Below are positions 4,366 to 58,234 of a stretch of 64,000 bases of DNA, piece after piece (within the stretch, counting starts at the first letter, position 1; every line of letters starts with the position of its first letter). The notes beneath the pieces were generated by a model. That model was not told the origin of the DNA and did no database searches. It worked only from the letters and a program-made list of their open reading frames with translations. Source of the DNA: a phage; the sequence record PZ386953.1. One strand, written 5' to 3'. Both the position numbers and the translations under genes were made by a program.

Positions 4366-7300
4366 ATGCTTCCAATCCCTTTGCTAAAACTTGGTCGTCA
4401 TTTCCTCGATAAGAGGGGTGGAATTAAGGAACTTGCTGTTCTGTCATACCCAATAGACAACAGTGATGGTACAAGCAATACAGTATCCTATGTAAATAGC
4501 TTAGCTATACTTTTTGATGATGGTCAGCTTAATATTACTGGTTATAATAGGTTCGGAGAGTGTCGGACTGGAGATCTTGATACAATAAACTATCCTAATG
4601 AGGCAGCTTGGAACGTAGACCATGTTTGGAGAGCTGACCGTGCATTTGTAATCCGCACATTCGATAATAAATTTTTCTATATTGGTTGCACAGCTGGTCT
4701 TATCGGATCGGAGGCAGCAGGTGGAAACGATGTTTGTGTCAGAGAGTGGACACCTTTGCCGGAACAGATCGTAACAGGGTTGCATTTGGACACCCATCCT
4801 GAGAGACTTGTTGAAGTAATGGGTGGCGTAAACAATACAGTGTGGGTAATTGCTGCACCAGAGGCTGATGGTATGCTTCACCTGTACGGCTCTGGCAATA
4901 ATACTTACGGCTCTCTTCATGTTGACAAAAATCAACACGCTACTCCAGTTAAGATTGGTGAAACATCTGAAAGTCCAGAGACAGGTCCTTGGAAAAACCC
5001 AAGAATTAATTGTGAAGTTCATGACAACTCGGTTATTTTTGGTGGTCCTAACGGATTCTGGATTGCAGGTTACGATTTCTTAAGAAATAACAGCAAAAAC
5101 ACACTAATTTATCCAGCCGAGCATGCGACTCTTGACCAGTTTAAAGGCATCTCGGTGGGCGAGACATGGAAAGGGTTTATGTGTGGACCTAATGGTGCAA
5201 TTATAGCCACAGAAAGGATGCACAAACCTGATGACCAACAGCTTGTTAATGTGTTTTATGGTCAGGATGTTTGGGGTGACGACACGTGGAGAAGCCTTAA
5301 CATCACCTATACCCATGAAGTAATTATGGCTCGCGGGTACGGGACTAGTGGAATTTTCTTCAATAATGGTACAAAACAGTACCGTGGTTTCTCCAGAAAC
5401 CTGTGTAACGATATTGGTGCTCAATCTGCTAATAATAATCCTAGGGCCAATTTTATTCATTACAGAGCGCTGGCAACAGCTAAGTTTGTTGAACAGACAG
5501 AGCCAGTAAGCTGGACAGAAAGCGTTTATTTTCAAGGGATCCACAGGGAAGGTTTCTTAGGCACATTCTGTGTGGTAAATGGAAAGCTTTGGTGGTCAGG
5601 TATCCCAAGGGGCAGTTTTTCAGGCTCTAATAACCTGTTCGGCGGCAGACTTAACAGCCAAGGGTTCACAGAGATTCCTGAGAATTGGTATAAAAATGTT
5701 CCGGTAGATAGCTGGAGTATCGAAGACATCTTTGATGTCAATGGTGTAAGCAGTGTTAGCAATATATACATTGGCGACACTGTCAAAATGAAGTTGAAAC
5801 CTCAACCGGAGGGTGCTACGTTCATTATTGACAAGATTGAGCTCGTGAACGCTGCAGGTACTGTTGTTACAGATGCAAACTATCAGTTCTCTACTAGCTG
5901 GAACCATGGCGGTGCTAACGAGGTTGTGGTTACCCAGCATAACCGTAACATCAACAGACGCGGTCTGTATTCTGTCAAGATCACCTATCATGATAAACAT
6001 GGCGCTGGAAGAACCCACACCACACGAAACTTAAACTGGAACATTGTAGTTCCTGCATATCCGTCAGACGGCAAATGGCACACTGTTGGCAGGAAGAAAC
6101 AGTTCCATGTAAACGATACTGTATACTTTGGGCTTAACGGCTCTCAGCCTGCTCCAGAAAGCGATACAGCATATATGGTTAGGCTTCACAGGCAAGATGC
6201 CGGATCTACCACGTATGATGTGACCCAGGAGATCTACGACCAGAGACGCAGTATCTATGACAATCTTGTGAAAACACAAGCCTTGTGGGAGTTCAACCCT
6301 AACGGCAAAGGCGGGAAGATGCTGCAGGTTAACGAGCAGAACGGAACATCGTTAACAGTGCACGAGCATGCTGATCCATGGCCTGATCCTGGTAAGCCTA
6401 ACCCAGGTGCTCGCACACTGAAAGTTGTTAGCCACAACGCAGGGTATTTCGGGATACGTTGGGAAGCTACAGTAAAATATGTTGATGGAACAACAAACAA
6501 TATAGGTATTACTCTGGGTGGTACCAGTGAAGATAGTTCTCTGAAAATTGCCTACACCCCTAGAGGCATCTCTATTGACAATATGGATATAGTTCGTAAC
6601 GGTTACGGTGATGTAAACATCAAAGTTACCCTCGGTGAACATCTTGGTGGAGAAAGGATCATCATGTATGCCTTTGACCATGATCCTCGCACCAATGGAA
6701 CCTATGCAAATCAGGCGTGGAGTTACCTGATAAATGCACCTGAGCCAAATACTAAAGAGTTTTATTATGGTATGAAGCGCGATGTGTGCAAGAAAACAGG
6801 AACACATGACTGGATCGCTATCTGCGTTAAAGATGAGCGGACAGCTTGGGACGAGCCTGTTAACAGATGGTTCATAGGAATCCCAACCAGAAGTGATAAA
6901 TATGTCACAGAATATATTGTGTGCATGGGCGGCACCAACCTGAACCTGTGTTGGAACGAAGATGCAAACAAATATTCCGATTATGACTATATGAGAGATA
7001 TCTCTTGTAATCAGTGGTTTAACCAGACTACAGGTTACCCTCCGCGTCAGGCGAGAGTAAACCCTGCAATCTTCACAGATACGCAGGTTTTCTTGACAAA
7101 ACAGGCCAACGAGGTTCAGACCTTCAAGAACAAATACGACCCTAACAAGTGGTTTTATAACTGTTATGGCGCATTTTTCTGGGGTCCGGGGGAACTACCT
7201 AACGGGGGATCTTGCTTCGAGGCTGCAACCTATGGCAGCGACTATATTATGGGGCAAGTCAAGAAATACAAAATGATCCCTGGTCCTGAAACCCTGGGTA

Positions 7301-26748: not shown

Positions 26749-28074
26749 ATGAGTAAAACCAAATTAGAACTAACCTGGATAGGTAAAAACGAGCGCAAAA
26801 AGTTAGAGCCGCACATTTTGTTAGAAGATTCTAGCAAGTCTTACCACAGCCAGAAAGTGACTGAAAACGATATTTTTGATAATAAACTGATTTTTGGAGA
26901 TAACTTATTAGCATTGAAGGCGCTAGAGCAAGAGTATGCAGGCAAAGTGAAGTGTGTTTACATAGACCCACCATTCAATACTGGAAGGGCTTTTGAGCAC
27001 TACGATGATAGCCTTGAGCATTCCATTTGGCTGGGCTTAATGAGGGATAGGTTAGAAATAATTCGTAATCTTCTAAGTGATGATGGGGTAATATTCGTTC
27101 ACTTAGATGATTGCGAAATGGCGTATTTAAAAGTTTTGATGGACGAGATTTTTGGTCGTGCAAATCAGTTAAATACCATATCGATGACCACAAATTCCCC
27201 TTCGGGATTTAAGGCAATAGGAGCCACAGTTTTCTCCACAGCAAACTTTTTGCTTGTATATGCAAAAGATCGCACCCAGAAACCGCTTAACAAAATCTAT
27301 ATACCTAAAGGGTATGATACAGGATATAACAAATACCTATTAAACCCGGATGACCATTATAAAAATTGGACGTGGTGCGGTATTGCCGATGCGTTTGCAA
27401 AGGCCAATGGCTATAAAGATGCAAAAGAGGCCAAGAAAAAACTGCCTGATACATTCGATGATGAATTAGCACAATTCGCAATTGATAATGCAGAACGTGT
27501 ATTTCAATCTGTTGCAATCGGCGGTGGTGCTAAAATAAAGAGAAAAGAAACTATCGAGAAGTCAAAGAAAGATAGGGATAAGGTTTATGTACATCCAAAT
27601 GAAGATGTTGAAGGATTTTATATCGTAAATGGTAGGCAAATGGTCTTTTACTCCAACAGGCTTTTGGAAATTGACGGTGATATGCAACCTGCGGAACTAA
27701 TAACTGATGTTTGGACAGACATTAGTTGGAATGGAATAGCAAATGAAGGCGGCGTTAGTTTCAAAAATGGGAAAAAACCAGAAGCGCTTTTGAAGCGAAT
27801 TTTCGAAATGTGTACGCGAGAAGGCGATTTGGTATTGGATTCATTCGGTGGTTCGGGAACTACTGCTGCTGTAGCTCACAAGATGAAAAGACGTTGGATC
27901 TCAATCGAGCTGGGTGATCATTGTCATACCCATATTATTCCGCGCTTGGAAAAAGTGATCGATGGTGAAGATCAAGGTGGTATTTCTAAGTCTGTAAACT
28001 GGCAAGGTGGTGGTGGCTTCAGTTATTACAAACTTGCCCCGACCTTAATTGCGAAAGATAAGTCTGATCAATAA
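26749..28074 (+). CDS. DNA methyltransferase (beta-class N6-adenine/N4-cytosine, type III Mod-like)
   Basis: Motif IV DPPF (VYIDPPFNT) N-terminal to motif I FxGxG (LDSFGGSGTT): circularly permuted beta-class order. Confidence 0.7.
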   Translation: MSKTKLELTWIGKNERKKLEPHILLEDSSKSYHSQKVTENDIFDNKLIFGDNLLALKALEQEYAGKVKCVYIDPPFNTGRAFEHYDDSLEHSIWLGLMRDRLEIIRNLLSDDGVIFVHLDDCEMAYLKVLMDEIFGRANQLNTISMTTNSPSGFKAIGATVFSTANFLLVYAKDRTQKPLNKIYIPKGYDTGYNKYLLNPDDHYKNWTWCGIADAFAKANGYKDAKEAKKKLPDTFDDELAQFAIDNAERVFQSVAIGGGAKIKRKETIEKSKKDRDKVYVHPNEDVEGFYIVNGRQMVFYSNRLLEIDGDMQPAELITDVWTDISWNGIANEGGVSFKNGKKPEALLKRIFEMCTREGDLVLDSFGGSGTTAAVAHKMKRRWISIELGDHCHTHIIPRLEKVIDGEDQGGISKSVNWQGGGGFSYYKLAPTLIAKDKSDQ

Positions 28075-29334: not shown

Positions 29335-30099
29335 TTGAAATTTATCTATAAAGAACACTACCACAAAGGTGTTGTGTGGAGTCTATTTGACGGATCTGGC
29401 GGTGCAGTCATTGACTGGGCAAAAGCTGGATATCTGTGCCTGTGCTTTAACGCAGAAGGTGCTGACCACGGCAGTTATGCAGAGGTGATCACCGATCATC
29501 CCAACATTCACTATGTGGACTATTGGATTGACCCGTGGTTCCCTCAGGAAACTTTTTGCATGTATCCGGCTCCAGATTTTATTCTTGCATTTCCTCCGTG
29601 CACGCATTTAGCGGTATCAGGTGCTGCACATTTTAAGAAAAAGCTGGCTAAGGACCCCATGATCCAAATTAATGCTGTAAAGGATGCTCGGGTTGCGGAA
29701 GAGCTGGGAGAGATTTACGATTGCCCGTGGCATGTAGAGAATCCTGTGGGTGTTATGTCCACACTGTGGCGCAAACCTGATTACCGTTTTCACCCTTCGG
29801 ATTATGGCGGGTATTTACCGGAAGATGATGTAAACCCATGGTTTCCTGAATTTATAGCTCCACGTGATGCCTATCCAAAAATAACTTGCGGCTGGATAGG
29901 TAATGGATTTATAATCCCAGCCACAAAACCTGTCCCGCAAATAGTTGACGCGGTTAGCGGGTATTCCATGCAACACGCCAAGCTGGGTGGAAAGAGTGCA
30001 AGAACGAAGATGATTCGAAGCCTCACACCACGTGGCTGGGCAAAAGCCGTATTCCTAGCAAACGAGCCTGTAGTAAGGAGCAGAATTAATGGGAAGTAA
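29335..30099 (+). CDS. C5-cytosine methyltransferase-like protein (divergent, short)
   Basis: TTG start 7 nt after AGGAGA SD; motif I FDGSGG, motif IV-like FPPCTHLAVSG (Cys retained, Gln replaced by Thr), motif VI-like VENPVG; no obvious target-recognition domain. Confidence 0.45.
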   Translation: MKFIYKEHYHKGVVWSLFDGSGGAVIDWAKAGYLCLCFNAEGADHGSYAEVITDHPNIHYVDYWIDPWFPQETFCMYPAPDFILAFPPCTHLAVSGAAHFKKKLAKDPMIQINAVKDARVAEELGEIYDCPWHVENPVGVMSTLWRKPDYRFHPSDYGGYLPEDDVNPWFPEFIAPRDAYPKITCGWIGNGFIIPATKPVPQIVDAVSGYSMQHAKLGGKSARTKMIRSLTPRGWAKAVFLANEPVVRSRINGK

Positions 30100-32167
30100 A
30101 TTTATGGCATCTGCATACAACCGTTTCGGTGAGCCAAACCCGAAAGCAACTAAGTATAAAAGTGGGGGAAGTGTGAAACGAGACTATCGTGATGAAAAAG
30201 AAGTTGAAACTGTAGAGACTGTTTTAGAAAATACTAAAATTGTCCCTGTCCCACAACAAAATATCGGTCTGATGGCTGCACAATATTTTGGTGTGCGATC
30301 AGCATTGTCCCAAGAAGACGGTGTGACAGTCACTGCAACATATTTCCCATATTACGACCGCTACGGAAATCTGTCTGGTTTCAAAAAGCGTGACTGGACT
30401 ATTCCTAAAGAGCAAAGGGGCCATTTCTCCGTTGTTGGCATCGTAAAGGCCAACTCCCAGATGTTTGGTCAAAAGCTGTGTGCATCTTCCAACAACCGTA
30501 AGCAGATTAACGTTTGTGAGGGAGAAGGTGATGTTATTGCAGCATGGCAGGCTGCATATCAGATACAAGTAAAAGGGATTCTCACCAACGCTAAAGCCCC
30601 GGCAAAGGTGAAGCAGTGGGCTAAAGAGGTCCAGGACGGGATCGACGCAGTTATCAACGGTGGTGATCTGGCAGGAAAACCCTGCCTGCCTTTTGTTGGA
30701 ATTAACTGTGGATGTGCAAACGCAGTAGATACTTTTGCAAACAATGAGAAGTTTATCCGTAGCTATGGAACAGTTGTGCTGGCAATGGATAACGATGCAG
30801 CTAACGAGGTAGAGAAGCAAAAACACGTCATTAAAGGTGTTGAGGCCACGCACAATATCGCAGCATTTTTGATGGCTGATAACGTTTACCACGTAGAATA
30901 CCCTGGTGAAGTAAATGACCCTGACGGTGTAAAAGATATCCGAGACATGCTGAAGGCTAAAAAGCTGGAAGATATTGTCAACATGTTCCGGCACCCTGTT
31001 AAATATGTGCCTGATGCTGTGTCGGATTTAGAAGACTTCTCTATCGAGTCTTTGCGGAAAAAGACTTCCAACGGGGTAGATATCAGTGCAGAGTTCCCAA
31101 AACTGCAAAAAATGCTAAAAGGCTTGCACAAAGGGACACTTGTAATGCTTACAGGTCCATCAGGCGGCGGTAAAACAACCGTGGCTAAAAAACTGGAACA
31201 CTGTATTGCAAGATACCTAATGGACCCGACATGCCCGAAGGCCGATGACTATGAAGAGGATGATCGTCTATGCATGATTCATCTTGAGGAGGACCCAGAG
31301 GAAGCAATTAACTCCTTGTATGCAAACCAGTTAGGGTTTGATGTTAAAGAGTTTGTTGAAGATCCTAGCCAGTTTTTAACTGATCAAGAACACGCAGAGA
31401 TTCACCAATCATGGGCAAAAGCTGGAAAAATCAAAGTGTTCAAACATTTCGGGTCTATTCCAGTGGACGAGTTGATTACCAAGCTTAAGCAAATGGTTTG
31501 CCTGTACCATTGTCGTTATATTGTGCTGGATCACCTGTCCATGGTAATTTCAGGGCTTAATGTTAAGGATGAGCGAAAAGAACTGGACATGGCTATGACC
31601 CAACTGGCTGCGTTTTGTAAGCAGTTTAACGTGTTTATCTTGGTGATCGCTCACCTCAAACGTACAGAGATTGTGCCCCCTAAGGACAAGGATGGTAACC
31701 CATTACCTTTCTGGTATCCTGTGCGAAAAGAGAATTTGCGAGGATCGGCTGGGCTTGAACAGTTGAGTTGGGTAGTCATAGGTGTCGAGGCCGAAGAAAT
31801 GGTGGATCGTTCTCGTGGACGTGTCCGTCTGGTAGGTCTTAAAAACCGTCCAGCAAAAACTTTAGGTATTGCTGACACTTTAGTTATGGATCCGCATACA
31901 GGTAAGTTCCATGATGCCAGTAATTGGTACTGGGACAAAGAAATGCAGATGTTTACAGACGGAGAAGGTGGGGAGGTTGTTTGGAGACCTCAGGCTATGT
32001 TTGAGGATCAGGAGCATGCAGTTGTAGAAACACCTATGGGCAAGGTTGTGGCTGATAAGGTTGTAACACCCACTGTCAAGCCTATTGACACGCAGGAAGA
32101 CCTCCAATACGATGATCCATCCTCTGATCCGGTCCCTGGTTTTGAGGATGATGAAACACCTTTTTAA
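30089..32167 (+). CDS. primase-helicase (TOPRIM primase + SF4 DnaB-like helicase, T7 gp4-like)
   Basis: TOPRIM Glu (VCEGEGD) and DxD (LAMDNDAANE); Walker A LTGPSGGGKTT; Walker B IVLDHLSMV; acidic C-terminus ...FEDDETPF. Confidence 0.7.
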   Translation: MGSKFMASAYNRFGEPNPKATKYKSGGSVKRDYRDEKEVETVETVLENTKIVPVPQQNIGLMAAQYFGVRSALSQEDGVTVTATYFPYYDRYGNLSGFKKRDWTIPKEQRGHFSVVGIVKANSQMFGQKLCASSNNRKQINVCEGEGDVIAAWQAAYQIQVKGILTNAKAPAKVKQWAKEVQDGIDAVINGGDLAGKPCLPFVGINCGCANAVDTFANNEKFIRSYGTVVLAMDNDAANEVEKQKHVIKGVEATHNIAAFLMADNVYHVEYPGEVNDPDGVKDIRDMLKAKKLEDIVNMFRHPVKYVPDAVSDLEDFSIESLRKKTSNGVDISAEFPKLQKMLKGLHKGTLVMLTGPSGGGKTTVAKKLEHCIARYLMDPTCPKADDYEEDDRLCMIHLEEDPEEAINSLYANQLGFDVKEFVEDPSQFLTDQEHAEIHQSWAKAGKIKVFKHFGSIPVDELITKLKQMVCLYHCRYIVLDHLSMVISGLNVKDERKELDMAMTQLAAFCKQFNVFILVIAHLKRTEIVPPKDKDGNPLPFWYPVRKENLRGSAGLEQLSWVVIGVEAEEMVDRSRGRVRLVGLKNRPAKTLGIADTLVMDPHTGKFHDASNWYWDKEMQMFTDGEGGEVVWRPQAMFEDQEHAVVETPMGKVVADKVVTPTVKPIDTQEDLQYDDPSSDPVPGFEDDETPF

Positions 32168-32225: not shown

Positions 32226-35003
32226 ATGAGCATGTGGTCGTTCGACTTTGAGTCATCCGGTTTGCTGGAAGATCCAGATCTTTATTATCACTGCGGCCTG
32301 TTTAAAGAGCTGAATAAGAACCGTTTTATGCTGTTCCTTCCTCTAAATGACCGCACACACTACTCCGAAGAGGATATAGAGAAGGCTAAGAACTTTATTC
32401 TGGCAAAGAAAACTCTTCATAAAGATTTTGAAGTTCGCATAGCAGATTTTTCGGAGTTGGAAGGTTGGCTTACAGGCAATTCCGACTGGTCACCAACAGC
32501 TTTGAACTGCCATAACTGCTACAGTTATGACTTTATGCTGATGGAAAGATTATCCGGTATTCATTTTGATATGTTCCGTGATCCTAAATGCATGGGGACT
32601 ATCAACGACCACCAGGTTAACCTGTTTGATACGTTGGCGATGAGCAGAATCTTGTGGCCTGATCGCCCTTTACCAAAAGGTTGTCCGGACTCTGTATTCA
32701 ACCCGGTTACTAAGAAAATGCAGCCTGTTGGTCCTCACGGCCTTATGGCATGGGGCTACGCCCTTGGTAACCAGAAAGTTCAAATTGATGACTGGCGCGA
32801 TCTTCCGTTGTGGAAGTATGTGGATCGTGTATTCGAGGACGTTATCATCCAGGAGCTGCTCTGGAAAGAGCTGGTAGCGGAATCAAAAGGTGTATTCTAC
32901 GGCAAATCTGACATGCAGAACTTTATGTACGATCCAGCCAAAGAGAAGCCGAAAGGGTTCAAGAAAATCACCTGGAAGAACGCATTACGCCGAGGCATGC
33001 TGCAGCACTTCCTGATGGAGCTGCAGGCCCGTCAGGGTGTATACTTCGACATAGATGGAGCTATTGCTTTACGTGACCGTTGTGATGCGTGGATGAAAGA
33101 AATCGCTGATCGTGTTGAACCTCAACTTCCTTTAAAAGAGCTGTCAATGTCTCAGCGGCCCAAGTTCCCTGAAAAGCCGTTTAACCAAGATGGGACAATC
33201 TCCAACAATGGTTGGAAATGGTTAAAAGATAAGCTTGGCTATCCTGTGGACATGAGTGCTTTGGAGTTCAAAGCCCCGCCTAAGCGAGCATTTACCTCCA
33301 CAGGAGATGTCAGCAAGATGGGGATAAAATGGTGTGAAGAGATGGGCTGCAAAGACCCTGATAAGATGGCTGATTTCTTGAGAGGCTATATTAAGGGCAC
33401 TTCCACACCACAACCTTTACCTAAAGAGCTGATGGATCAGGCAATAAGTGATCTACAGCAGAAGCGAATGCCGGACTGCAAGATACCTATGAAAATCAGC
33501 AATCAGGACGACATTAAGCGATACCTGATCAGTGCTGGTTGGCTTCCGACAATGTGGAGAACTAAGGATGTAACTAAAGACAGCAAGAAGAAAGCTCTAC
33601 CTGATGCAGATGTTGATGCACGAGTATATGCATACATGGACGAGCTTTTAGAGTCAGAGTATTGTGACCTGATTATCAACTTCTGGAACAAAACTGATGC
33701 TAAGTTTCAGACAACCGTGCACAAGTTCCGAAGCTTTCCTAACTCCGAAAGGATTAAAAAGGAAGTATTCGGGAAAATACGTAGAAAAGCCAGAGCACTT
33801 ATTACTTCTCCGCAGCTGAAAGATACGTTTGGACACCTATGCCCAAATCTTGAAAAATTGAACGGAGAGATGGCTAAAGATATCGTCTTGTGGTTATCAT
33901 TGCGAAACCGCAGATCGGTCCTTGATCCAATCAAGGAGGATAAGGTTGATACTGGTCTTCTTAATCACCCACGTTTGAAGATTGACCATAAGCTTCCTGC
34001 TAAAAGTTCTGGATTAACAAACACTTCCCGACAGAAACACAGTATTTGTGCAAACATGCCTAAACCATCTCCTAAAGTGGTTATGGGTAAAGAGATGCGC
34101 AGTCTGTGGGGTGTTCCTCCAGGATACTTTGAGATCGGTATTGACGGGTCCAACTTAGAGCAGCTTATCGGGGCTTGGGGTGCCTTTGAGTTCGACAACG
34201 GCCTGTATTACGATGTTGTAAGTAACGGGGATGCCCACCAAAACAATGCTGAGGCATATACGAAAGTAGCAGGTAGAGAGGTGTCTCGTAACGACGGTAA
34301 ACCTATCACGTACGGGGTTATGTATGGGGCACAAAAAGATAAAGTTGCAGACATGCTGGATATCTCCCCAGAGTTGGGGCAAAGGGTAATCGATGCGCTT
34401 TGGGATGCCAACCCTGGTCTTAAAGGGCGTAAAGAGGATCTGGAGAAATTCTGGGAAGCAACGGGTAAGAAGTTTATCTACTCTTTTGATGGTCATGCTA
34501 TCTGGACCCGATCTAAACACTCTTTACTTAATGCATACCAACAAAATGGTGGTGCATCGTTGTGTGACTTAGTTGGGATACTCATGCACCACCAAATGGT
34601 GAAGCGTGGGTGGTACGATGAAGGTGTTCGTCGTATTATTTATTACCATGATGAGTACCAACTTCAGGTCCCTGACACGCCTAAGTATAAGACTGTGTAC
34701 ACCTTCGACACAATTGAAGAATTGGAAGCATTTAAGGCAGAGCAGGAGGCCAAACTTCATGTGTTTGACGGTCATAAGTACAAAAAGGCACGCAAGGATG
34801 AAAACGGAAACGAAGTGGTTGACAGAGACGGAAACACGGTGTACGATCCTATCCTGAACGATGACGGAAAGCTTGAACTTATCTGGAGCCCTGTGGGTGA
34901 AATGGTGGTGCATTGCTTCTGGCAAGCTTCTAAAATGATGGGCGTTCCATTCCAGATCACAGGTGAATACTTGTGTGGTCGGAACTGGGGTGATTGTCAC
35001 TAA
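32226..35003 (+). CDS. family A DNA polymerase with 3'-5' exonuclease domain
   Basis: Exo I FDFESSGL, Exo II NCYSYDF, pol motif B K..YGVMYG, motif C YYHDEYQL. Confidence 0.8.
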   Translation: MSMWSFDFESSGLLEDPDLYYHCGLFKELNKNRFMLFLPLNDRTHYSEEDIEKAKNFILAKKTLHKDFEVRIADFSELEGWLTGNSDWSPTALNCHNCYSYDFMLMERLSGIHFDMFRDPKCMGTINDHQVNLFDTLAMSRILWPDRPLPKGCPDSVFNPVTKKMQPVGPHGLMAWGYALGNQKVQIDDWRDLPLWKYVDRVFEDVIIQELLWKELVAESKGVFYGKSDMQNFMYDPAKEKPKGFKKITWKNALRRGMLQHFLMELQARQGVYFDIDGAIALRDRCDAWMKEIADRVEPQLPLKELSMSQRPKFPEKPFNQDGTISNNGWKWLKDKLGYPVDMSALEFKAPPKRAFTSTGDVSKMGIKWCEEMGCKDPDKMADFLRGYIKGTSTPQPLPKELMDQAISDLQQKRMPDCKIPMKISNQDDIKRYLISAGWLPTMWRTKDVTKDSKKKALPDADVDARVYAYMDELLESEYCDLIINFWNKTDAKFQTTVHKFRSFPNSERIKKEVFGKIRRKARALITSPQLKDTFGHLCPNLEKLNGEMAKDIVLWLSLRNRRSVLDPIKEDKVDTGLLNHPRLKIDHKLPAKSSGLTNTSRQKHSICANMPKPSPKVVMGKEMRSLWGVPPGYFEIGIDGSNLEQLIGAWGAFEFDNGLYYDVVSNGDAHQNNAEAYTKVAGREVSRNDGKPITYGVMYGAQKDKVADMLDISPELGQRVIDALWDANPGLKGRKEDLEKFWEATGKKFIYSFDGHAIWTRSKHSLLNAYQQNGGASLCDLVGILMHHQMVKRGWYDEGVRRIIYYHDEYQLQVPDTPKYKTVYTFDTIEELEAFKAEQEAKLHVFDGHKYKKARKDENGNEVVDRDGNTVYDPILNDDGKLELIWSPVGEMVVHCFWQASKMMGVPFQITGEYLCGRNWGDCH

Positions 35004-42946: not shown

Positions 42947-43254
42947 TACTTGAAAATTCCTGGCATATCAAGTATAAGGGGGATTTCTAAAATGGATTTC
43001 CTCCTTTTGATATTTCACCGGGCTGGATATTTTAAAATTCTTAGAAAATCAGAAAATGGATCGAAAACTAAAATGTATTTTTCAGAGTAGGCGCGACAAG
43101 CTGAATAACTCATCCTATCGTTTGCACCATATTCCAGGCCACCATTATAGATTTTCCCACACATGCTCACATCCTTCTACCAGAACTTTCCCACTCGCCC
43201 TTGGCCTTTTATGGCAATAATCCAGCCACTATCTTGAAGTTGCGGTACAGCTTT

Positions 43255-43345
43255 CCAAGTACTCGATCTGTTTTTCGTTTCAAAGATTGAATTTTCTGAA
43301 AATTTTTCTCGATAAATTTCCAAGTACTCGATCTGTTTTTCGTTT
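43255..43345. repeat. pair of 26-29 bp direct repeats
   Basis: CCAAGTACTCGATCTGTTTTTCGTTT at about 43255 and 43320, with further GAAAATGGAT-like short repeats around them. Confidence 0.6.
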
Positions 43346-43551
43346 TCTGAATCGGATTTTCTGGAAATCGTTCCAGCTCTCTACCTGAAATTTTTGGGGA
43401 CGAAATCGATTTTTCGTTTTCAGAAATGGATTTTTAAAATTTCTATATGGGAATATTTTATGGGATACTGTTTTATAGGAAATTGTTACGGAGGGTAATT
43501 AGCATGCTAATTAAATTTATTAAATGCGAGGAGTTCTCATTTAGAATTTTG

Positions 43552-43765
43552 AATGATAATCATTCTCGTTTGCAGAATAACGGGCAGGCCCGGTGATTGT
43601 CTCCCGGCCCCTGTTGCCCCGGCTTGTTATTATAGTATCACACAGGACAAAGAAGGCAAGGATTTTTTGCATAAATTTTTAAATGATAATGATAACCGTT
43701 CTCATTTTATGCAGCGCCCATCCCCGGTGGTTGTCTCCCCCGTCACCGGTGCCTGCCGTCCTTTC
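43552..43765 (+). repeat. two tandem diverged copies of a GC-rich structured element
   Basis: AATGATAAT ... GCAG ... CCGGTG(A/G)TTGTCTCCC units at about 43552-43640 and 43682-43765; core GGCAGGCCCGGTGATTGTCTCCC recurs inverted at about 53185. Confidence 0.5.
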
Positions 43766-43962
43766 GATAGGTATATTGTGCCCCCCCTGGCGGGGCCGCT
43801 GTCAACACCTTTTCAAAAAATTTTTCTAACCTGATGCGCTAACCGTTGCAACCTGGCGGGGCCAGCCTGGCAGGACCTAACTGACCAGGTGGGAGAGGGT
43901 GAAATCTTGCAAACCTGGTAGGCCCATGCTGTAGGGTAAACAATTGAAGAGGAGGTACAAAA

Positions 43963-53315: not shown

Positions 53316-53588
53316 ATGTCAAGCTGGATTAATCAAGAAGTCGAATCACGTTTTAATGCTATTTGGGATCTCATCGAAAAAGAGGACGGAACATCAAGCC
53401 CTTATCTCAATAATCTTGAATTCCATTTCGTGGAAGCGATGAACGCAGAACATGATCACGAAGGTGGTGCGGATGAGTTCGCTAAAGGGTATGGCTTCAA
53501 CAATGCCAACGAAATGATCGAGGCGGTTGTACTCCAGGCTGAGGAAGATTATCAATTAAAAACGCTTGAATTCTGCCGCCGTAAGTAA
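53316..53588 (+). CDS. hypothetical early protein
   Basis: 90 aa; promoter TTGACA at about 53233, hairpin GGGCAAAAGTGCCC, SD AGAGAGGAAAA. Confidence 0.5.
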   Translation: MSSWINQEVESRFNAIWDLIEKEDGTSSPYLNNLEFHFVEAMNAEHDHEGGADEFAKGYGFNNANEMIEAVVLQAEEDYQLKTLEFCRRK

Positions 53589-53650
53589 TAAGATAATGAC
53601 ACGGGCCAAAAGGCCCACTAAACAAAAACCACATAAAGAGGAAAAACATC

Positions 53651-53914
53651 ATGAAACGTCTTGACCAGCTCAAACTAGTTCAATATATGGCTTATCGTGT
53701 TCTGGAAGTCCAGAAAGGTAGCAAAAAAGAGGTTTGCGAGAAAGCTTATAAGATCTTTACCCGCAAAAAAGATGACTGGATGCTACGCCAGACCAAAAAG
53801 GCTGACATCTTGGGGTACCTGGAAGAAGAGATCCGACTTGAAGAACAAGAAGAGATCCGCCGTAGTGAGGCAGATTATCAGGCAGCTTGGGAAAACTGGA
53901 TGAGCAACAAATAA
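53651..53914 (+). CDS. hypothetical early protein (charged, coiled-coil-like)
   Basis: 87 aa; hairpin GGGCCAAAAGGCCC then SD AAAGAGGAAAAA. Confidence 0.5.
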   Translation: MKRLDQLKLVQYMAYRVLEVQKGSKKEVCEKAYKIFTRKKDDWMLRQTKKADILGYLEEEIRLEEQEEIRRSEADYQAAWENWMSNK

Positions 53915-53980
53915 TACAACAAGTTACATGGTCAGGGGCAATAAAGCCCCTTGATCACATAAAAATTATGCTATCCTTGG

Positions 53981-54009
53981 TTGACAGGGATCGGCAGTTT
54001 TGCTATATT
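53981..54009 (+). promoter_or_regulatory. sigma70-like promoter
   Basis: TTGACA - 17 bp - TATATT. Confidence 0.55.
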
Positions 54010-54059
54010 CTTTTTTGAAGGGAAGTTGTAAGAAAATTAACTGAGAGGTAAAAAACACC

Positions 54060-54479
54060 ATGAACATTAAATCTGATAATCCGGCATATAGCTTTGATAA
54101 CGCTTTTTGTCACGGTCCGGCGGCGAAAGGATTCGAAATCGATGGTAAACTAATTATTGTCAATGTTGACGGGGAAGAGGTTGCAGTATATCCGGTGGCG
54201 GACGTTAAAAGCCGTCTACAATGCCGCATGGATGTTACCGCCTATCAGCTTGATCCGGTCCGCGTAGTTGCCCTGGTCCTGGAGGAAGAGATCAAAGCCA
54301 TGCATCATAGCAACAAGTTTATCGGTGACGCGCAAGATAATATGAAGGTATGCCGCCATAAAGTTAACGAAGTTCTTAAAGAATACGGCTTCAAAGATCT
54401 GATGATCAAGCGTGATGAAAAATTCCGCTATCGTAATGACCTGGCAAATCGAATCTATCAAATATACGAATCATTATAA
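54060..54479 (+). CDS. hypothetical early protein
   Basis: 139 aa; SD GAGAGG. Confidence 0.5.
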   Translation: MNIKSDNPAYSFDNAFCHGPAAKGFEIDGKLIIVNVDGEEVAVYPVADVKSRLQCRMDVTAYQLDPVRVVALVLEEEIKAMHHSNKFIGDAQDNMKVCRHKVNEVLKEYGFKDLMIKRDEKFRYRNDLANRIYQIYESL

Positions 54480-54497
54480 TTTCTTAACTGAACTATC

Positions 54498-54526
54498 AGG
54501 GGCTTTAAAAGGCCCCTTTCTTTTTG
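54498..54526 (+). terminator. intrinsic terminator closing the + strand early block
   Basis: GGGGCTTT-AAAA-GGCCCC then TTTCTTTTT. Confidence 0.7.
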
Positions 54527-55129
54527 TCTGTATTTCTCCTACCACAAACGGCCCCACCTGGCAAGTGGAATAATTGACTAGCCATCAATCCCACACACTG
54601 TACAAATATACATGTAAAATAGCTATTGCATAATCTTTCATTGTGTGGTAGCAGGGCCATTTTTACACGTTTTTCCTTCCAAAATTGCACGTAATGCCGC
54701 TATTGCACAAAATTTAACCTGATGCATATCTTCAGTGTCTTGTCAACAACTAAAAATCTTTATAAGTCATACACTTACACACTCACAAAAGCGTGTTCTA
54801 CGTGAAAAATCGAGTATAACTATAGCCGCCAGATCTCAGAATTTACGTACGTTCACCATTCTATAGTCTGCTAAGTATTTATTCCAACCATAGAATAATG
54901 GAATAGTCAATACCTGCATAAAATAATTATTCGTGTAAACTGCATAACATAAATCAGCTTAGGTGTCAACATTTTTCGTAAACAGCCTGAAATTATCACG
55001 GTGAGTTATCATAAACAGAGAAATCTTTAGTCGTCTAATGTTTACTGTACATTACTATACTTACTGGAATCATTAGATGACTAAGAGAAAGATAAGAAAT
55101 AATTAACAATACAATTATTTTATCTGTAA

Positions 55130-55570
55130 CAATAAGGCAACTATGCAAACGAATGGCATGGCGCGACGGAGTCGCGACATAATATAAAAGCAGTAACCAT
55201 CACCCCCGTGATAGTTTGTCTGCAAACTATTAATCAGATCATAGTTGCCTTGTATTTAGTTAATCATGACATAACAAGCAAGGCAACTATAGATCTGCTA
55301 ATAGTTGCCCTGCTTTTATATTATGTCATATATTATTAACCTGTTAATTGTCAGCTTATTGGCTGTTAGCTTGTCAATTGTTAACTTGTTAATTGTTATC
55401 ATGCAAACGAATGTCATGGCTTATCATCTTTGTGTAAACAGTCAATCATGTAAATGATAAGTATGTGAACAGTTATCCATGTAAACTATTAGACATGTAA
55501 ACAATCAGGTGTGCAAAAGTGTCATAGTATGTCACTATTGTGTCTAAAGTGTCACCAGTATGTCAGACAA
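55130..55570. repeat. iteron-like repeat array (candidate origin / regulatory hub)
   Basis: GGCAACTAT x4 in both orientations incl. a 29-bp palindrome around AGATCT; 20-mer ATGCAAACGAATG(G/T)CATGGC x2; TTAATTGT x4; ATGTAAAC x4; TGTCA x5 phased at 9-11 bp. Confidence 0.6.
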
Positions 55571-56125
55571 GTTTTTCTCCTCTTTGTCAAGTGCTGCATG
55601 AAAAATTTACAAACTGGTATGGTAGCATTTTTGCGGCCCTGTTTACATTCAGCGATGTATGTATAAACCTTGCTGTGTGGGCGTTTAGACGTCTAGACGG
55701 TTGGAAGTCTGCAGGTCAATATCTAATCTATTGGCTGCTAACCATATCCCACACAAATAGTAATAAATATAATTGTTATATGCGTAAACAGTAACTCATG
55801 TTATCAATCCCTGTATGTATCGCCAGTGGTGCGCATAATGGGTATTATGTTAAATTGCCCGTAATGATAACTATTCTCACAATGATAGGTATTCTCATTC
55901 ACCCCCACAAGATAGGTTGCAAATGTTGTGCCACTGTGTGAACGGCCTAGCCTATTAATTTGCCTCACTGCCTTGATATTTGAGAATTGTTATAAGAATG
56001 AGAAGTATTCCCATTTCGTCCGCTTGGCAGCACTCCAGTCGCTACCGGCTCCTGACAGGGCAGCACTCCTGTCGGTCAGGTCAAAATCGTGGTATAACTG
56101 GACCTGTTCAGATATTTCTGGCTGA

Positions 56126-56664
56126 CTCTTCAGGCCTGTGTGGGAAAAGCCGACCCCTCCGGCGGCGGGGAGGGGGTCAATTAAAAAATTTACGGGGTAT
56201 ATGAAGCGCTCTTCAGGTAAGGCAGGTATTATGGGATGAAACCCTCTTCAGGTAATGATATTTGTGGGTGTGATATTTGCTGGAAAGCCAGATATTACGG
56301 GACTCCCGGCGGGGCAGGGGTGGTACAGACAGGGAAAATATGGGGATGTAGTTGGGTAAATTGATCAGACAGGTAGGGTATAGGATATGTTACAAGTATG
56401 TTAAATATGGAGGTTGAATATCTGTAAGATTTGTGTGTAAAATCAAAGACTTAAGTGGTGTTGTGGTATTTTCTATAAATAATTCAAGTTTAATAGGTGA
56501 TATTTGTCCCTATCTACTTTGTGTGGTAAACAGATTCAGATGAGATTGGTTTACGAGTGTATACATAATATACAAATTAAAGATACAAGAAACCCCCTCC
56601 CCCTTCGGCTACCATTCACCTTTTCCTCTGACTGGTACTTAAACACTTATTCAGACTCTTCAGG
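56126..56664. repeat. CTCTTCAGG motif repeats and GC-rich hairpins in ORF-free region
   Basis: CTCTTCAGG at about 56126, 56209, 56245, 56656; inverted repeat GACCCCTCC-GGCGGC-GGGGAGGGGGTC at about 56152-56178. Confidence 0.5.
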
Positions 56665-57013
56665 TTATCACCCATATATCATATGGCAGTGACTGGTGTC
56701 CTCCGGCCCCTCTTTCGTCACCCGTCCGCTTCGCCATGCTAATGCCATAGCCAAATGTTCGGTTGTTCACCATGTTCACTCAGGTGTATCTCCATACCCC
56801 TTCAAACCGAAGAGAACAGAAAACCCGAATTACTCGGTAAAAGAAAAGAGAAGAACTTAATTTTATCAGGATAGGCAAGAATGTCAAGGCATGACTGCTC
56901 ACTAAACAAGCAAACAGTCATGTGTGGAAGGTAAGTGATTGTGGTGGTGGGAAATTTAGTTGAAAGATGTATTGTAGGTGCTCCAGCACTTTAGCCGGGC
57001 AGCTAATTGTGTG

Positions 57014-57229
57014 TCAGTCCAGCGGTTCATCCTCTACTTCACTGAAATCAATGTTCATGGTCTCTTCCCAACCATCGATCTCAGCACAAGAGTGGAGTTC
57101 TTTAGGGTTTACTCCCAAAGCCTCAGCAACAGAGTCTATATTTAACACCTCTGGCAGGTATGATTCATCGAATTCCAGGTAAATCAGGCCACGAGTGTTG
57201 TCAGCTCCACCAAATATTTCTATCTTCAT
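57014..57229 (-). CDS. small acidic protein
   Basis: 71 aa, Asp/Glu-rich; SD GGAGA. Confidence 0.45.
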   Translation of the reverse strand: MKIEIFGGADNTRGLIYLEFDESYLPEVLNIDSVAEALGVNPKELHSCAEIDGWEETMNIDFSEVEDEPLD

Positions 57230-57349
57230 AAAATCTCCTCTGGAAATGAGAGTGTGAACGGGTTTTATACGTCACAATGCACAGGAATTATGCACGTTTG
57301 CCTCTTCAGGCCATGCTTTAGCATGAGGAACCTGTGTGGGCTCGGTGCT

Positions 57350-57562
57350 TCATAGTCTACCACCTCTGAACTCTTCGTGCTCAGGCATAATAGAGAACCA
57401 GATATCTACGATGTCCTCCCACGTCAGGTCATCAGCCTCAGGATCTGTCTGGGACGAAGATGAAGAGTCCTCAGAATCTAAGTTTTCCTCTTTAACTGGC
57501 TCATCCAAGGGACATATGGTCACTCCTTCGGATGTCTCTTCAGATGCATGTGTGTTGATCAT
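57350..57562 (-). CDS. small acidic Ser-rich protein
   Basis: 70 aa, poly-Ser and acidic stretches. Confidence 0.4.
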   Translation of the reverse strand: MINTHASEETSEGVTICPLDEPVKEENLDSEDSSSSSQTDPEADDLTWEDIVDIWFSIMPEHEEFRGGRL

Positions 57563-57922
57563 GTTCCACCCGTGAGTATTCCGGCAACAGCCGCTATGGA
57601 AGTAATGATCATCAGGATCACCACTAAAACTTCAGACAATGTTCTCATTGTGTATTCCATATTCTCCAAACTGTGTGTGGATACTATCACGGGAGCGGTA
57701 ATGTGTCAACAGCAACGCCGCGAGGGTTTGGTTAAAATCCGAGCGTATGGTGATTTTGGTCAAAACGGACGTGCGTTCTCGCTACGCTCGAAAGAGAGAC
57801 TTGTTTGTAGAAAGCTCTTAAACGCTCTGTAACGAGATTATCTGTCCAAGGTATGCAATCGTGCACCAGATAAAGAAAAGGACGCCACAGAGCGTCCTAG
57901 GTGTCTTAAATTTGATATTTTG

Positions 57923-58234
57923 CTATACCCATGAGGGCTTATCAAGGTTGGAGTAGCTGAAAGGTGTCAAAAGGTGACTGTCAAAATCCCTCAAACTATC
58001 CAAATCTTTTTCCTCGTCCTGACACCATCTGTGCCTACATTTATTGTTGTAGTGCATAGAATGCATAGCGTTCTGCAACTTAACAGGTACAAGTGATTCA
58101 GGAGTAGATAGTATTGTTGGGTATGCCAGAATCACCTCAAACAGTGGAAACACATCGAAACTAAAGTCTACCTCTGCAGAGGTTGATGGCATATAGGAGT
58201 ATTTAGCCGCCTTTGTAGACATAATCCACCTCAC
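57923..58234 (-). CDS. hypothetical protein
   Basis: 103-aa ORF, start overlaps upstream stop. Confidence 0.4.
   Translation of the reverse strand: MRWIMSTKAAKYSYMPSTSAEVDFSFDVFPLFEVILAYPTILSTPESLVPVKLQNAMHSMHYNNKCRHRWCQDEEKDLDSLRDFDSHLLTPFSYSNLDKPSWV

What the first reader, a model, noticed from the sequence alone, without database searches (positions are those of the whole stretch)
55130..55570. Iteron-rich AT-rich region: candidate replication origin or regulatory hub
Seen: GGCAACTAT four times in alternating orientation, including a 29-bp palindrome around AGATCT at about 55282-55309; a near-identical 20-mer ATGCAAACGAATG(G/T)CATGGC at about 55143 and 55401; TTAATTGT x4; ATGTAAAC x4; and five TGTCA repeats spaced 9-11 bp (helical phasing) at about 55520-55565. 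The region follows the terminator closing the + strand early block and contains no convincing ORF. Established: phased short repeats next to AT-rich DNA are hallmarks of iteron origins and multi-site operators.
Basis: partly seen in the sequence, partly recalled or inferred. Interest (0 to 1): 0.55.

Follow-up and report, generated by a model that had tools for sequence, protein, structure and literature searches.

The report
Repeat arrays beside phage genome end
The repeat-rich stretch is real and non-coding, but it sits directly against the 459-bp terminal repeat that marks the physical ends of this rV5-like phage genome, so it is more likely part of the DNA-cutting and packaging signals at the genome end than a replication origin.

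Summary
The window is a Vequintavirus (rV5-like E. coli myophage). The finding lies in a 2.5-kb ORF-free tract (54480-57013) between convergent gene blocks, the "non-coding" box of the rV5 paper.

The repeats are real and far beyond chance, though some counts were overstated.

The key new fact is that window 55566-56024 is the 459-bp direct terminal repeat (TR). At least six deposited relatives begin or end exactly there, and Korf 2019 reports 458-bp terminal redundancies. The TGTCA array ends at 55565, one base before the TR.

In 16 aligned phages, a TGTCA copy always ends at -1. Array copy numbers vary (TGTCA 2-6, GYRAAYA 1-8).

The GGCAACTAT copies belong to a ~150-nt Y-shaped foldback closed by a perfect 18-nt stem. 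Four lineages keep a perfect 15-18-nt stem with different sequences. The TTAATTGT zone is dispensable.

T7 shows the same plan: a short TR flanked by phased short repeats.

Best reading (0.55): cis elements for terminase positioning and TR processing at the concatemer junction. An origin is not excluded (0.2). There is no adjacent initiator gene and no DnaA box.

Novelty: new variant of a known kind. Interest: moderate.

The parts
54480..57013 (.). ORF-free tract between convergent gene blocks. The + strand block ends at 54479. The - strand gene 57014-57229 ends at 57014.
   Evidence: ORF-integrity test. Drawn as the 'non-coding' box between genes 163/164 in the rV5 paper (PMC3606486).
54498..54517 (+). 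Intrinsic terminator closing the + strand block of small genes
   Evidence: 8-bp stem, 5 GC pairs, T-run. Annotated as a terminator in Murica and EdH4.
55143..55162 (+). Direct repeat DR1, ATGCAAACGAATGGCATGGC. It overlaps GGCAACTAT copy 1 (55136-55144).
   Evidence: Equivalent flanking direct repeats with different sequence occur in L008 (5091/5334) and A73.
55162..55176 (.). Small hairpin CGCGAC-GGA-GTCGCG directly 5' of the closing stem. It is part of the conserved motif GGCGCGAC-N6-8-GCGAC.
   Evidence: Fold. The motif is shared by the window, L008, A73 and A5-4.
55176..55327 (.). Y-shaped foldback. A perfect 18-nt closing stem (55176-93 / 55310-27) encloses a CCCC-loop hairpin (55195-55216) and an imperfect inverted repeat with 28-29-nt arms (55224-52 / 55279-306). 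That inverted repeat carries GGCAACTAT copies 2-4 and two GATC sites.
   Evidence: z-scores -8.8 to -9.9. 96-99% conserved in 15 relatives. Perfect stems of different sequence in L008, A73 and Schickermooser/L009.
55330..55400 (+). Hypervariable zone holding the TTAATTGT / TGTTAAC-type repeats
   Evidence: It is replaced by a GC-rich hairpin (AACACCCGAAGGGGTGACC) in 8 of the 15 relatives and largely deleted in 4, so it is dispensable.
55401..55420 (+). Direct repeat DR2, ATGCAAACGAATGTCATGGC
   Evidence: Conserved in all 15 relatives.
55433..55503 (+). GYRAAYA (GTAAACA / GTGAACA) array with a unit period of 15-16 nt (copies here lie 31-32 nt apart, two units)
   Evidence: 1-8 copies in relatives, always in the same orientation.
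55519..55565 (+). RTGTCA array: 4 exact copies plus 1 variant, 9-11 nt apart, ending 1 nt before the terminal repeat
   Evidence: 2-6 copies in 16 phages, with the last copy invariably at -5..-1 relative to the TR start.
55566..56024 (.). 459-bp direct terminal repeat (the physical genome ends), present once in this collapsed or re-opened sequence
   Evidence: The EdH4 record has positions 1-459 identical to its last 459 nt, and they map here. HdK5, YN3, ECP2309, Pr121LW, ECP2303 and bov10K2 begin or end at these borders. Korf 2019 reports 458-bp terminal redundancy from abrupt read ends.
56025..56082 (+). Right-flank repeat unit of ~33 nt (GGCAGCACTCCWGTCG...), 2 copies here
   Evidence: family D9. 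One to more than two copies in relatives. It forms a hypervariable island flush with the TR end.

Best explanation
The finding is the subterminal DNA that lies just upstream of the 459-bp direct terminal repeat (TR, 55566-56024) in the replicative concatemer of an rV5-like phage.

PROPOSED MECHANISM
1. Late in infection, concatemers carry one TR between genome units.
2. The packaging enzyme, or an accessory DNA-binding protein, is positioned by two same-orientation arrays of short sites: GYRAAYA every 15-16 nt, then RTGTCA about one helical turn apart.
3. The last TGTCA ends exactly where the virion DNA begins, so the cut falls at TGTCA|GAC. The opposite border (...CCGCC|TGGCA) reads TGCCA|GGC on the other strand.
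4. One TR must become two, a T7-type problem. The ~150-nt Y-shaped foldback (55176-55327), bracketed by 20-nt direct repeats, is proposed to act once a strand is nicked or displaced. It could serve as a snap-back, priming or fork-arrest structure.

SHOWN
- The position of the genome ends in close relatives.
- The arrays are flush with the TR.
- Motif and orientation are conserved while copy number varies.
- Stem complementarity is selected in four lineages.

INFERRED
- Which protein binds the arrays.
- That cutting depends on them.
- Any role of the foldback in TR duplication.
For: GENOME ENDS
- The TR maps to 55566-56024. The EdH4 ends are identical over 459 nt.
- Records from several laboratories start or stop at exactly these borders.
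- Read-end evidence comes from Korf 2019.
- The Mydovirus KPP-1 has a 514-bp DTR with 2x coverage and a PhageTerm 'T7 type' call.
- The Phapecoctavirus Schickermooser has a 329-bp DTR in the equivalent tract. Its TR starts AGCAAGTTCTC, against GACAAGTTTTTCTC here.

ARRAYS
- A TGTCA copy ends at -1 in 16 of 16 phages, with 2-6 copies at 9-11 nt. GYRAAYA has 1-8 copies at 15-16 nt.
- Hypervariable repeat islands sit just outside both TR borders, while the TR itself is 0.90-0.99 identical.
- The motifs are confined to this tract within the 64 kb.

FOLDBACK
- z-scores are -8.8 to -9.9 on either strand.
- Closing stems are perfect at 18, 17, 16 and 15 nt, with different sequences, in the window, L008, A73 and Schickermooser/L009. 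The longest inverted repeat in shuffles was 11 nt.

T7 PRECEDENT
- In T7 the TR (1-160) is followed by about a dozen phased copies of the heptamer CCTAAAG (and variants), mostly 13 nt apart. CCTAAGG/CCTAAAG repeats precede the right TR.
- The hairpin intermediate in T7 TR duplication is summarised in PMC4281155.
Against: - No experiment links these motifs to terminase.
- No terminase gene lies in the window.
- Two reports call Vequintaviruses circularly permuted or headful by PhageTerm. One of them used transposase libraries, which detect ends poorly.
- The termini were determined in relatives that are 92-97% identical here, not in this phage.
- The function of the T7 flanking repeat arrays is itself unproven (my own knowledge).
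- The shared TGYCA at both borders is a post-hoc 5-nt match.
- In KPP-1 no TGTCA-type array is evident next to its TR.
Confidence: 0.55

Rival explanations
1. Replication origin. The short repeat arrays bind an initiator or helicase loader, the AT-rich DNA melts, and the foldback or hairpins serve as priming signals. This need not exclude a packaging role. T7 has secondary origins (phiOL, phiOR) next to its ends.
For: - GC content is 0.356 at 55-56 kb against about 0.44 elsewhere.
- Repeats are same-orientation and their copy number varies.
- The structure is strong on both strands.
- The distant relative L008 has three perfect DnaA boxes (TGTGGATAA) at 5846-5882 of its equivalent tract.
- T7 phiOL and phiOR are annotated beside its TR.
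- T7 plasmid packaging needed both an origin and the junction, going only by the title of Chung & Hinkle 1990 as cited in PMC4281155.
Against: - The window has no DnaA box within one mismatch between 50562 and 57675.
- No initiator-like gene is adjacent. The replication genes are 20-25 kb away.
- Repeat cores are 5-8 nt, not iteron-sized.
- The rV5 authors' skew analysis only tracked changes in transcription direction.
- The exact abutment of the array on the cut site is unexplained by an origin.
Confidence: 0.2
2. RNA-level element. The foldback is a structured non-coding RNA, or a pair of face-to-face intrinsic terminators that stop convergent transcription from entering the terminal repeat.
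For: - Hairpin 55282-55309 followed by CTGCTTTTATATT on the + strand is annotated as a terminator in Murica.
- Hairpin 55216-55195 followed by ACTGCTTTTA on the - strand scores as terminator-like.
- RNA folds have z-scores of about -8.8.
- A - strand promoter-like site lies at 55347-55320.
Against: - No Rfam match at E <= 1.
- Both strands fold equally well, as expected for a DNA palindrome.
- The promoter-like -35 lies in the dispensable hypervariable zone, and its -10 lies inside the closing stem.
- In L008 and A73 the perfect stem is kept, but the arms are not U-rich and the inner hairpins are not terminator-like.
- A strong terminator already closes the + strand block at 54498.
Confidence: 0.1
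3. DNA-entry or host-factor site. Subterminal repeats and palindromes control DNA ejection or the early fate of the incoming end, as proposed for the T5 injection-stop region, or bind host nucleoid proteins.
For: - The region lies within 1 kb of a physical end.
- Direct and inverted repeats are densely mixed.
- The relative L008 has DnaA boxes.
- The T5 comparison rests on my own knowledge, not on a tool result.
Against: - There is no evidence of stepwise DNA transfer in rV5-like phages.
- No recognisable host-factor consensus scored above background. DnaA boxes are absent, and the Fur-like boxes have 5-6 mismatches.
Confidence: 0.05

Closest known systems
Bacteriophage T7 concatemer junction (160-bp terminal repeat with flanking short-repeat arrays and a hairpin-forming inverted repeat)
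   Same: - A short exact DTR.
- Arrays of short same-orientation repeats begin within a few bases of the TR on both sides. In T7 these are CCTAAAG copies, mostly 13 nt apart.
- A hairpin-capable sequence lies upstream of the TR on one side (literature).
- The TR must be duplicated during maturation.
   Different: - The host phage is a 136-kb myovirus, not a 40-kb podovirus.
- The TR is 459 bp.
- Two different array motifs lie on one side and a 33-nt unit on the other.
- The hairpin is a ~150-nt three-branched foldback with an 18-bp closing stem and flanking 20-nt direct repeats.
- No phage RNA polymerase promoters flank it, and no terminase genes are nearby.
Iteron-type origins (lambda ori, P4 ori/crr, plasmid oriV)
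   Same: - Clustered same-orientation repeats next to AT-rich DNA.
- Copy number varies between relatives.
- The GTGAACAG unit read in reverse (CTGTTCAC) shares TGTTCAC with the P4 type I iteron TGTTCACC. That P4 sequence is recalled from memory and may be coincidence.
   Different: - Repeat cores are much shorter than 17-22 bp.
- No cognate initiator gene is adjacent.
- There are no DnaA boxes here.
- The location is at a convergent transcription terminus, flush with the genome end.
AAV inverted terminal repeat (T/Y-shaped foldback used as primer and nicking site)
   Same: - Topology only. A long closing stem encloses two smaller hairpins, sits near a genome end, and has a conserved short motif (GGCGCGAC...GCGAC) right beside the stem.
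   Different: - There is no homology.
- It lies 240-390 nt inside the unique sequence rather than at the very end.
- The genome is dsDNA, and no Rep-like nickase was identified.
- This is a resemblance, not a tested relationship.
The 'non-coding' box of phage rV5 (Kropinski et al. 2013, PMC3606486)
   Same: - It is the same locus, between genes 163 and 164, and contains no ORFs.
   Different: - That paper assigns it no function and does not place the termini or describe the arrays or the foldback.

Membership tests
T7-type short-DTR terminus / concatemer junction | Exact direct terminal repeat at defined physical ends | tested here: met
   EdH4 positions 1-459 equal its last 459 nt and map to window 55566-56024. 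HdK5, YN3 and ECP2309 carry it at both ends. Pr121LW, ECP2303 and bov10K2 are opened at the same borders. Korf 2019 linearised contigs where reads ended abruptly. This was shown in relatives, not in this phage itself.
T7-type short-DTR terminus / concatemer junction | Arrays of short direct repeats immediately flanking the TR | tested here: met
   RTGTCA and GYRAAYA arrays end at -1. A 33-nt unit array starts at +1 after the TR. T7 was checked with the same tool.
T7-type short-DTR terminus / concatemer junction | Hairpin-forming inverted repeat near the TR | tested here: met
   The foldback 55176-55327 has z = -9.3. Perfect stems of differing sequence occur in four lineages. Its use in TR duplication is inferred only.
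T7-type short-DTR terminus / concatemer junction | Terminase-dependent cutting at both TR borders with TR duplication | not testable with these tools
   This needs packaging assays or read-end mapping. PhageTerm calls in the literature disagree: 'T7 type' for KPP-1 against 'circularly permuted/headful' for bov phages and BpE1AUH.
Iteron replication origin | Three or more 17-22-bp direct repeats bound by a cognate initiator encoded nearby | tested here: not met
   Repeat cores are 5-8 nt at 10-11 and 15-16 nt periods. Neighbouring ORFs are PHROGs of unknown function with no Pfam match.
Iteron replication origin | AT-rich unwinding element and host-factor boxes (DnaA/IHF) | tested here: inconclusive
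   AT-rich: yes (GC 0.356). DnaA boxes: none in the window tract, but three perfect ones in relative L008.
Iteron replication origin | Supports initiation of replication | not testable with these tools
   No coverage, marker-frequency or plasmid-assay data are available.
Headful pac site (P1 / P22 / SPP1 type) | Site in or next to the small-terminase gene, giving imprecise, permuted ends | tested here: not met
   The ends in relatives are precise and carry an exact 459-bp repeat. No terminase gene was found among the ORFs scanned in the window.
Described structured RNA (Rfam) or tRNA | Match to a curated covariance model | tested here: not met
   No Rfam match at E <= 1 in 53500-58000. No tRNA in the window.

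The most novel reading that the evidence does not exclude
A conserved subterminal module is the dedicated machinery-docking and terminal-repeat-duplication site of Vequintavirinae and Phapecoctavirus myophages. The module runs: direct repeat, GGCGCGAC...GCGAC motif, Y-shaped foldback with a co-varying perfect stem, direct repeat, then phased arrays ending at the cut site. In this reading the foldback acts as a snap-back primer or resolution structure, mechanistically akin to rolling-hairpin replication. That would be a way of regenerating short terminal repeats not described for large myoviruses.
Probability: 0.2. Interest if true: 0.7.

Novelty: new variant of a known kind. Interest (0 to 1): 0.45.

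Why it matters
- rV5-like and phAPEC8-like phages are among the most frequently isolated coliphages and are common in therapeutic and biocontrol cocktails. Their records are opened at arbitrary points and are often labelled circularly permuted.
- Placing the physical ends, and the probable cis signals beside them, inside the long-unexplained 2.5-kb 'non-coding' box has three uses:
  - it gives a correct genome start for annotation;
  - it defines what must be kept when engineering or rebooting these genomes;
  - it offers a tractable system for studying how short terminal repeats are regenerated outside the T7 group.
- It also warns that 'phased repeats plus AT-rich DNA' should not be read as an origin before the genome termini are located.

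Tried and rejected
- Rfam at a permissive threshold and a tRNA scan found nothing.
- Small conserved ORFs were tested. Inside the finding, ORFs are broken in most relatives. ORFs that stay 'intact' elsewhere in the tract lie in ~100% identical DNA, often in overlapping frames, so they are uninformative.
- A DnaA-box scan found none in the tract.
- Fur-box reading of AATGATAAnnATTCTC: 5-6 mismatches to the consensus here, and better matches lie at 43.5 kb. It was noted but not adopted.
- A sigma-54 reading of the 20-mer was rejected by eye because the -24 GG is missing.
- Sigma-70 promoters: 17 were found against 11 +/- 3.5 expected, none convincingly conserved inside the finding.
- A strand asymmetry of folding, which would have favoured RNA, was not found.
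- The 139-aa neighbour as the repeat-binding protein is unlikely. It is 92% identical between genera whose repeats differ, and it has no known domain.
- Assemblies opened inside the tract were first taken as possible evidence for ends. ECO111 5-P is an arbitrary SPAdes break with overlap, so only records with exact border coincidence were used.
- The tandem TR copies in CM1 and I29 are ambiguous. The CM1 unit is 523 nt and includes 64 nt of array, so they are not counted as proof.
- Literature searches for a described function of this tract found none. The T7 flanking-array papers are not in the library.
- The search for related loci in IMG/VR gave only 3 loci.

Full report
IDENTITY AND SETTING

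The 2.6 kb around the finding matches 122 phage records at 90-99% identity. Nearly all are Vequintavirus, the rV5-like E. coli myophages.

The finding lies in an ORF-free tract, 54480-57013. The + strand block of small genes ends at 54479, followed by a strong terminator at 54498-54517. The - strand block ends at 57014. The two blocks therefore converge on the tract.

The rV5 genome paper draws this locus as a grey 'non-coding' box between genes 163 and 164 and assigns it no function. Its skew analysis only tracked changes in transcription direction (PMC3606486).

Elsewhere the window carries tail-fibre genes, rIIA/B, a Dda-like helicase, a methyltransferase, a T7 gp4-like primase/helicase (30089-32164) and a DNA polymerase (32226-35000).

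CHECK OF THE OBSERVATION

Confirmed:
- GGCAACTAT occurs four times in the 64 kb, all within 174 nt and in alternating orientation.
- The 20-mer occurs only at 55143 and 55401.
- TGTCA lies at 55520, 55530, 55550 and 55561, with TGTCT at 55541. Spacings are 10, 11, 9 and 11 nt.

Overstated:
- TTAATTGT and ATGTAAAC each have two exact copies, not four. The real second family is GT[AG]AA[CT]A.

Missed:
- A perfect 18-nt inverted repeat lies at 55176-93 / 55310-27. The longest perfect inverted repeat in 30 shuffles of the tract was 11 nt.

ORFs inside 55130-55570 stay open in only 0-6 of 15 relatives, so the region does not code for protein.

CONSERVATION

I aligned window 54300-57100 with 15 Vequintavirus loci.
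- The ORF-free tract is more conserved (0.90-1.00 identity per 50 nt) than the neighbouring gene (0.79-0.83).
- The exceptions are hypervariable islands at 55300-55400, 55450-55550 and 56000-56200.
- The palindromic core 55127-55330 is 96-99% identical.
- The TTAATTGT zone is replaced by a GC-rich hairpin in eight relatives and largely deleted in four. It is therefore dispensable.
- Between DR2 and 55566 the sequence is made of the same two motifs in every phage, but in different numbers. GYRAAYA has 1-8 copies at a 15-16 nt period. TGTCA has 2-6 copies at 9-11 nt.

THE DECISIVE CONTEXT: THE GENOME ENDS

Korf et al. 2019 state that the Vequintaviruses EdH4 and HdK5 have terminal redundancies of 458 bp. 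They linearised contigs where most reads ended abruptly (PMC6563267).
- The EdH4 record has its first 459 nt identical to its last 459 nt. These map to window 55566-56024.
- HdK5, YN3 and ECP2309 carry the same segment at both ends.
- Pr121LW starts exactly at 55566. ECP2303 ends there. bov10K2 starts at the other border.

So 55566-56024 is the direct terminal repeat (TR). It is present once in this collapsed or re-opened sequence.
- The TGTCA array ends at 55565. A TGTCA copy ends at -1 in all 16 aligned phages.
- The other border is followed at once by a ~33-nt unit present in one to more than two copies.
- Both hypervariable arrays thus sit just outside the two TR borders, while the TR itself is well conserved.

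Read towards the TR, the borders are TGTCA|GAC and, on the opposite strand, TGCCA|GGC. This is a weak post-hoc similarity.

WIDER RELATIVES

- The Phapecoctavirus Schickermooser has a 329-bp DTR in the equivalent tract after its homologue of the 139-aa gene. Its TR begins AGCAAGTTCTC, against GACAAGTTTTTCTC here.
- The Mydovirus KPP-1 has a 514-bp DTR with 2x coverage and a PhageTerm 'T7 type' call.
- Two other reports call Vequintaviruses circularly permuted or headful. I regard these as less reliable than coincident exact ends from several laboratories, but the conflict stands.

THE FOLDBACK

The four GGCAACTAT copies are not independent sites.
- Copies 2-4 lie in an imperfect inverted repeat with 28-29-nt arms (55224-52 / 55279-306).
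- That repeat and a CCCC-loop hairpin (55195-55216) are enclosed by the perfect 18-nt stem.
- A small hairpin (55162-76) and the two 20-mers flank this Y-shaped element.

It folds far better than shuffles on either strand, as DNA or as RNA, with z-scores of -8.8 to -9.9.

Three other lineages no longer align by BLAST but keep the same plan with different sequences:

| Lineage | Perfect closing-stem arms | Arm length (nt) |
|---|---|---|
| Window | GACATAATATAAAAGCAG / CTGCTTTTATATTATGTC | 18 |
| L008 | GACATAATAACGCTGAG / CTCAGCGTTATTATGTC | 17 |
| A73, A5-4 | GACACTATAAAACGAG / CTCGTTTTATAGTGTC | 16 |
| Schickermooser, L009 | GCTAATAATAAGCCA / TGGCTTATTATTAGC | 15 |

- Each stem encloses two hairpins.
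- In the window, L008 and A73/A5-4 the stem is preceded by GGCGCGAC-N6-8-GCGAC.
- In the window, L008 and A73 the element is bracketed by direct repeats specific to each lineage.

Complementarity of the arms is therefore under selection. Equal folding of both strands, and the lack of a conserved promoter or terminator logic, favour a DNA-level structure over an RNA.

COMPARISON WITH T7

Using the same tools on T7, the 160-bp TR is followed by about a dozen phased copies of the heptamer CCTAAAG (and variants), mostly 13 nt apart. CCTAAGG/CCTAAAG repeats precede the right TR. phiOL and phiOR lie just beyond.

T7 maturation must duplicate the TR. A hairpin intermediate has been reported (Chung and Hinkle 1990, as summarised in PMC4281155).

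The rV5-type tract has the same logic: a short TR, phased repeat arrays flush with both borders, and a hairpin-forming element upstream. The motifs differ, the branched foldback is much larger, and no terminase genes are nearby.

INTERPRETATION

Most likely (0.55): the finding is the set of cis elements that position the packaging machinery at the concatemer junction and help regenerate the TR.

A replication origin (0.2) is not excluded and could coexist with packaging signals.
- Against it here: no DnaA box, no adjacent initiator gene, and repeats far shorter than iterons.
- For it: low GC, and three perfect DnaA boxes in the equivalent tract of L008.

An RNA or terminator reading (0.1) and an entry or host-factor reading (0.05) have little support.

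The location of the ends is already implicit in deposited records and one sentence of Korf 2019. I found no description of the flanking arrays, the co-varying foldback, or their link to the rV5 'non-coding' box. I rate the finding a new variant of a known kind, of moderate interest.

Noticed in passing
window 43552, 43688, 55863, 55881, 55997 (all + strand): The motif AATGATAAnnATTCTC (Fur-box-like) occurs 5 times against 1.0 expected. Two copies lie in a second ORF-free tract (~42950-43960) and three lie inside the terminal repeat. Similar boxes occur in the TRs of Schickermooser and KPP-1, and a 2-mismatch Fur-consensus match is at L009 5629. It may be a phage operator or promoter element, or an iron-responsive site.
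   Followed up: partly
window 56126, 56209, 56244, 56656, 57302 (+ strand); also L008, A73 (L029), KPP-1 (L031): CTCTTCAGG is repeated 5 times on the + strand to the right of the terminal repeat (0.6 expected in the whole window). It recurs in the equivalent tracts of distant relatives. Its function is unknown.
   Followed up: partly
L008 5846-5882 (IMGVR_UViG_3300045988_159287): Three perfect DnaA boxes (TGTGGATAA) lie within 45 nt in the tract equivalent to the terminal-repeat region of a distant relative. The window has none within one mismatch.
   Followed up: partly
window 56600-56900: About 300 nt of ORF-free DNA is ~100% identical across 16 phages, far above the neighbouring genes. A near-consensus sigma-70 promoter on the - strand (56887-56860, 11 of 12 matches, with TG) points into it. 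It is a candidate non-coding RNA or another cis element.
   Followed up: no
window 54060-54479 (+): A 139-aa protein (PHROG 12277, no Pfam match) is 92% identical between Vequintavirus and Phapecoctavirus, which belong to different subfamilies. It is always the last gene before the terminal tract. A few Vequintaviruses (HMD-6, A142, VB-EcoM-WM) lack it.
   Followed up: partly
window 42950-43960: A second ~1-kb ORF-poor tract carries 26-nt direct repeats (CCAAGTACTCGATCTGTTTTTCGTTT at ~43260 and ~43320), TTTTCGTTT repeats and GC-rich hairpins. It lies upstream of the + strand block of small genes.
   Followed up: no
phage records MG0656xx (e.g. L016 = MG065662.1): Nineteen 'Campylobacter phage' records (those inspected are flagged UNVERIFIED) match this Vequintavirus tract at 90-99% identity; the one opened (MG065662.1) carries Vequintavirus taxonomy. 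The host labels are probably wrong.
   Followed up: no
L015 (Shigella phage CM1) 1248-1771 of the extracted segment (about locus 2047-2570); I29 ON286975.1 104225-105275: The terminal repeat appears twice in tandem in these assemblies. The CM1 unit is 523 nt: TR plus 64 nt of array. This is either an assembly artefact of terminal redundancy or a real duplication.
   Followed up: partly
window 55237-55240 and 55292-55295: Two GATC sites sit opposite each other in the arms of the imperfect inverted repeat (55224-52 / 55279-306). CAGATCTG is kept in L008. The phage encodes a DNA methyltransferase at 26749-28071. Methylation-sensitive recognition, as at the P1 pac site, is conceivable.
   Followed up: no
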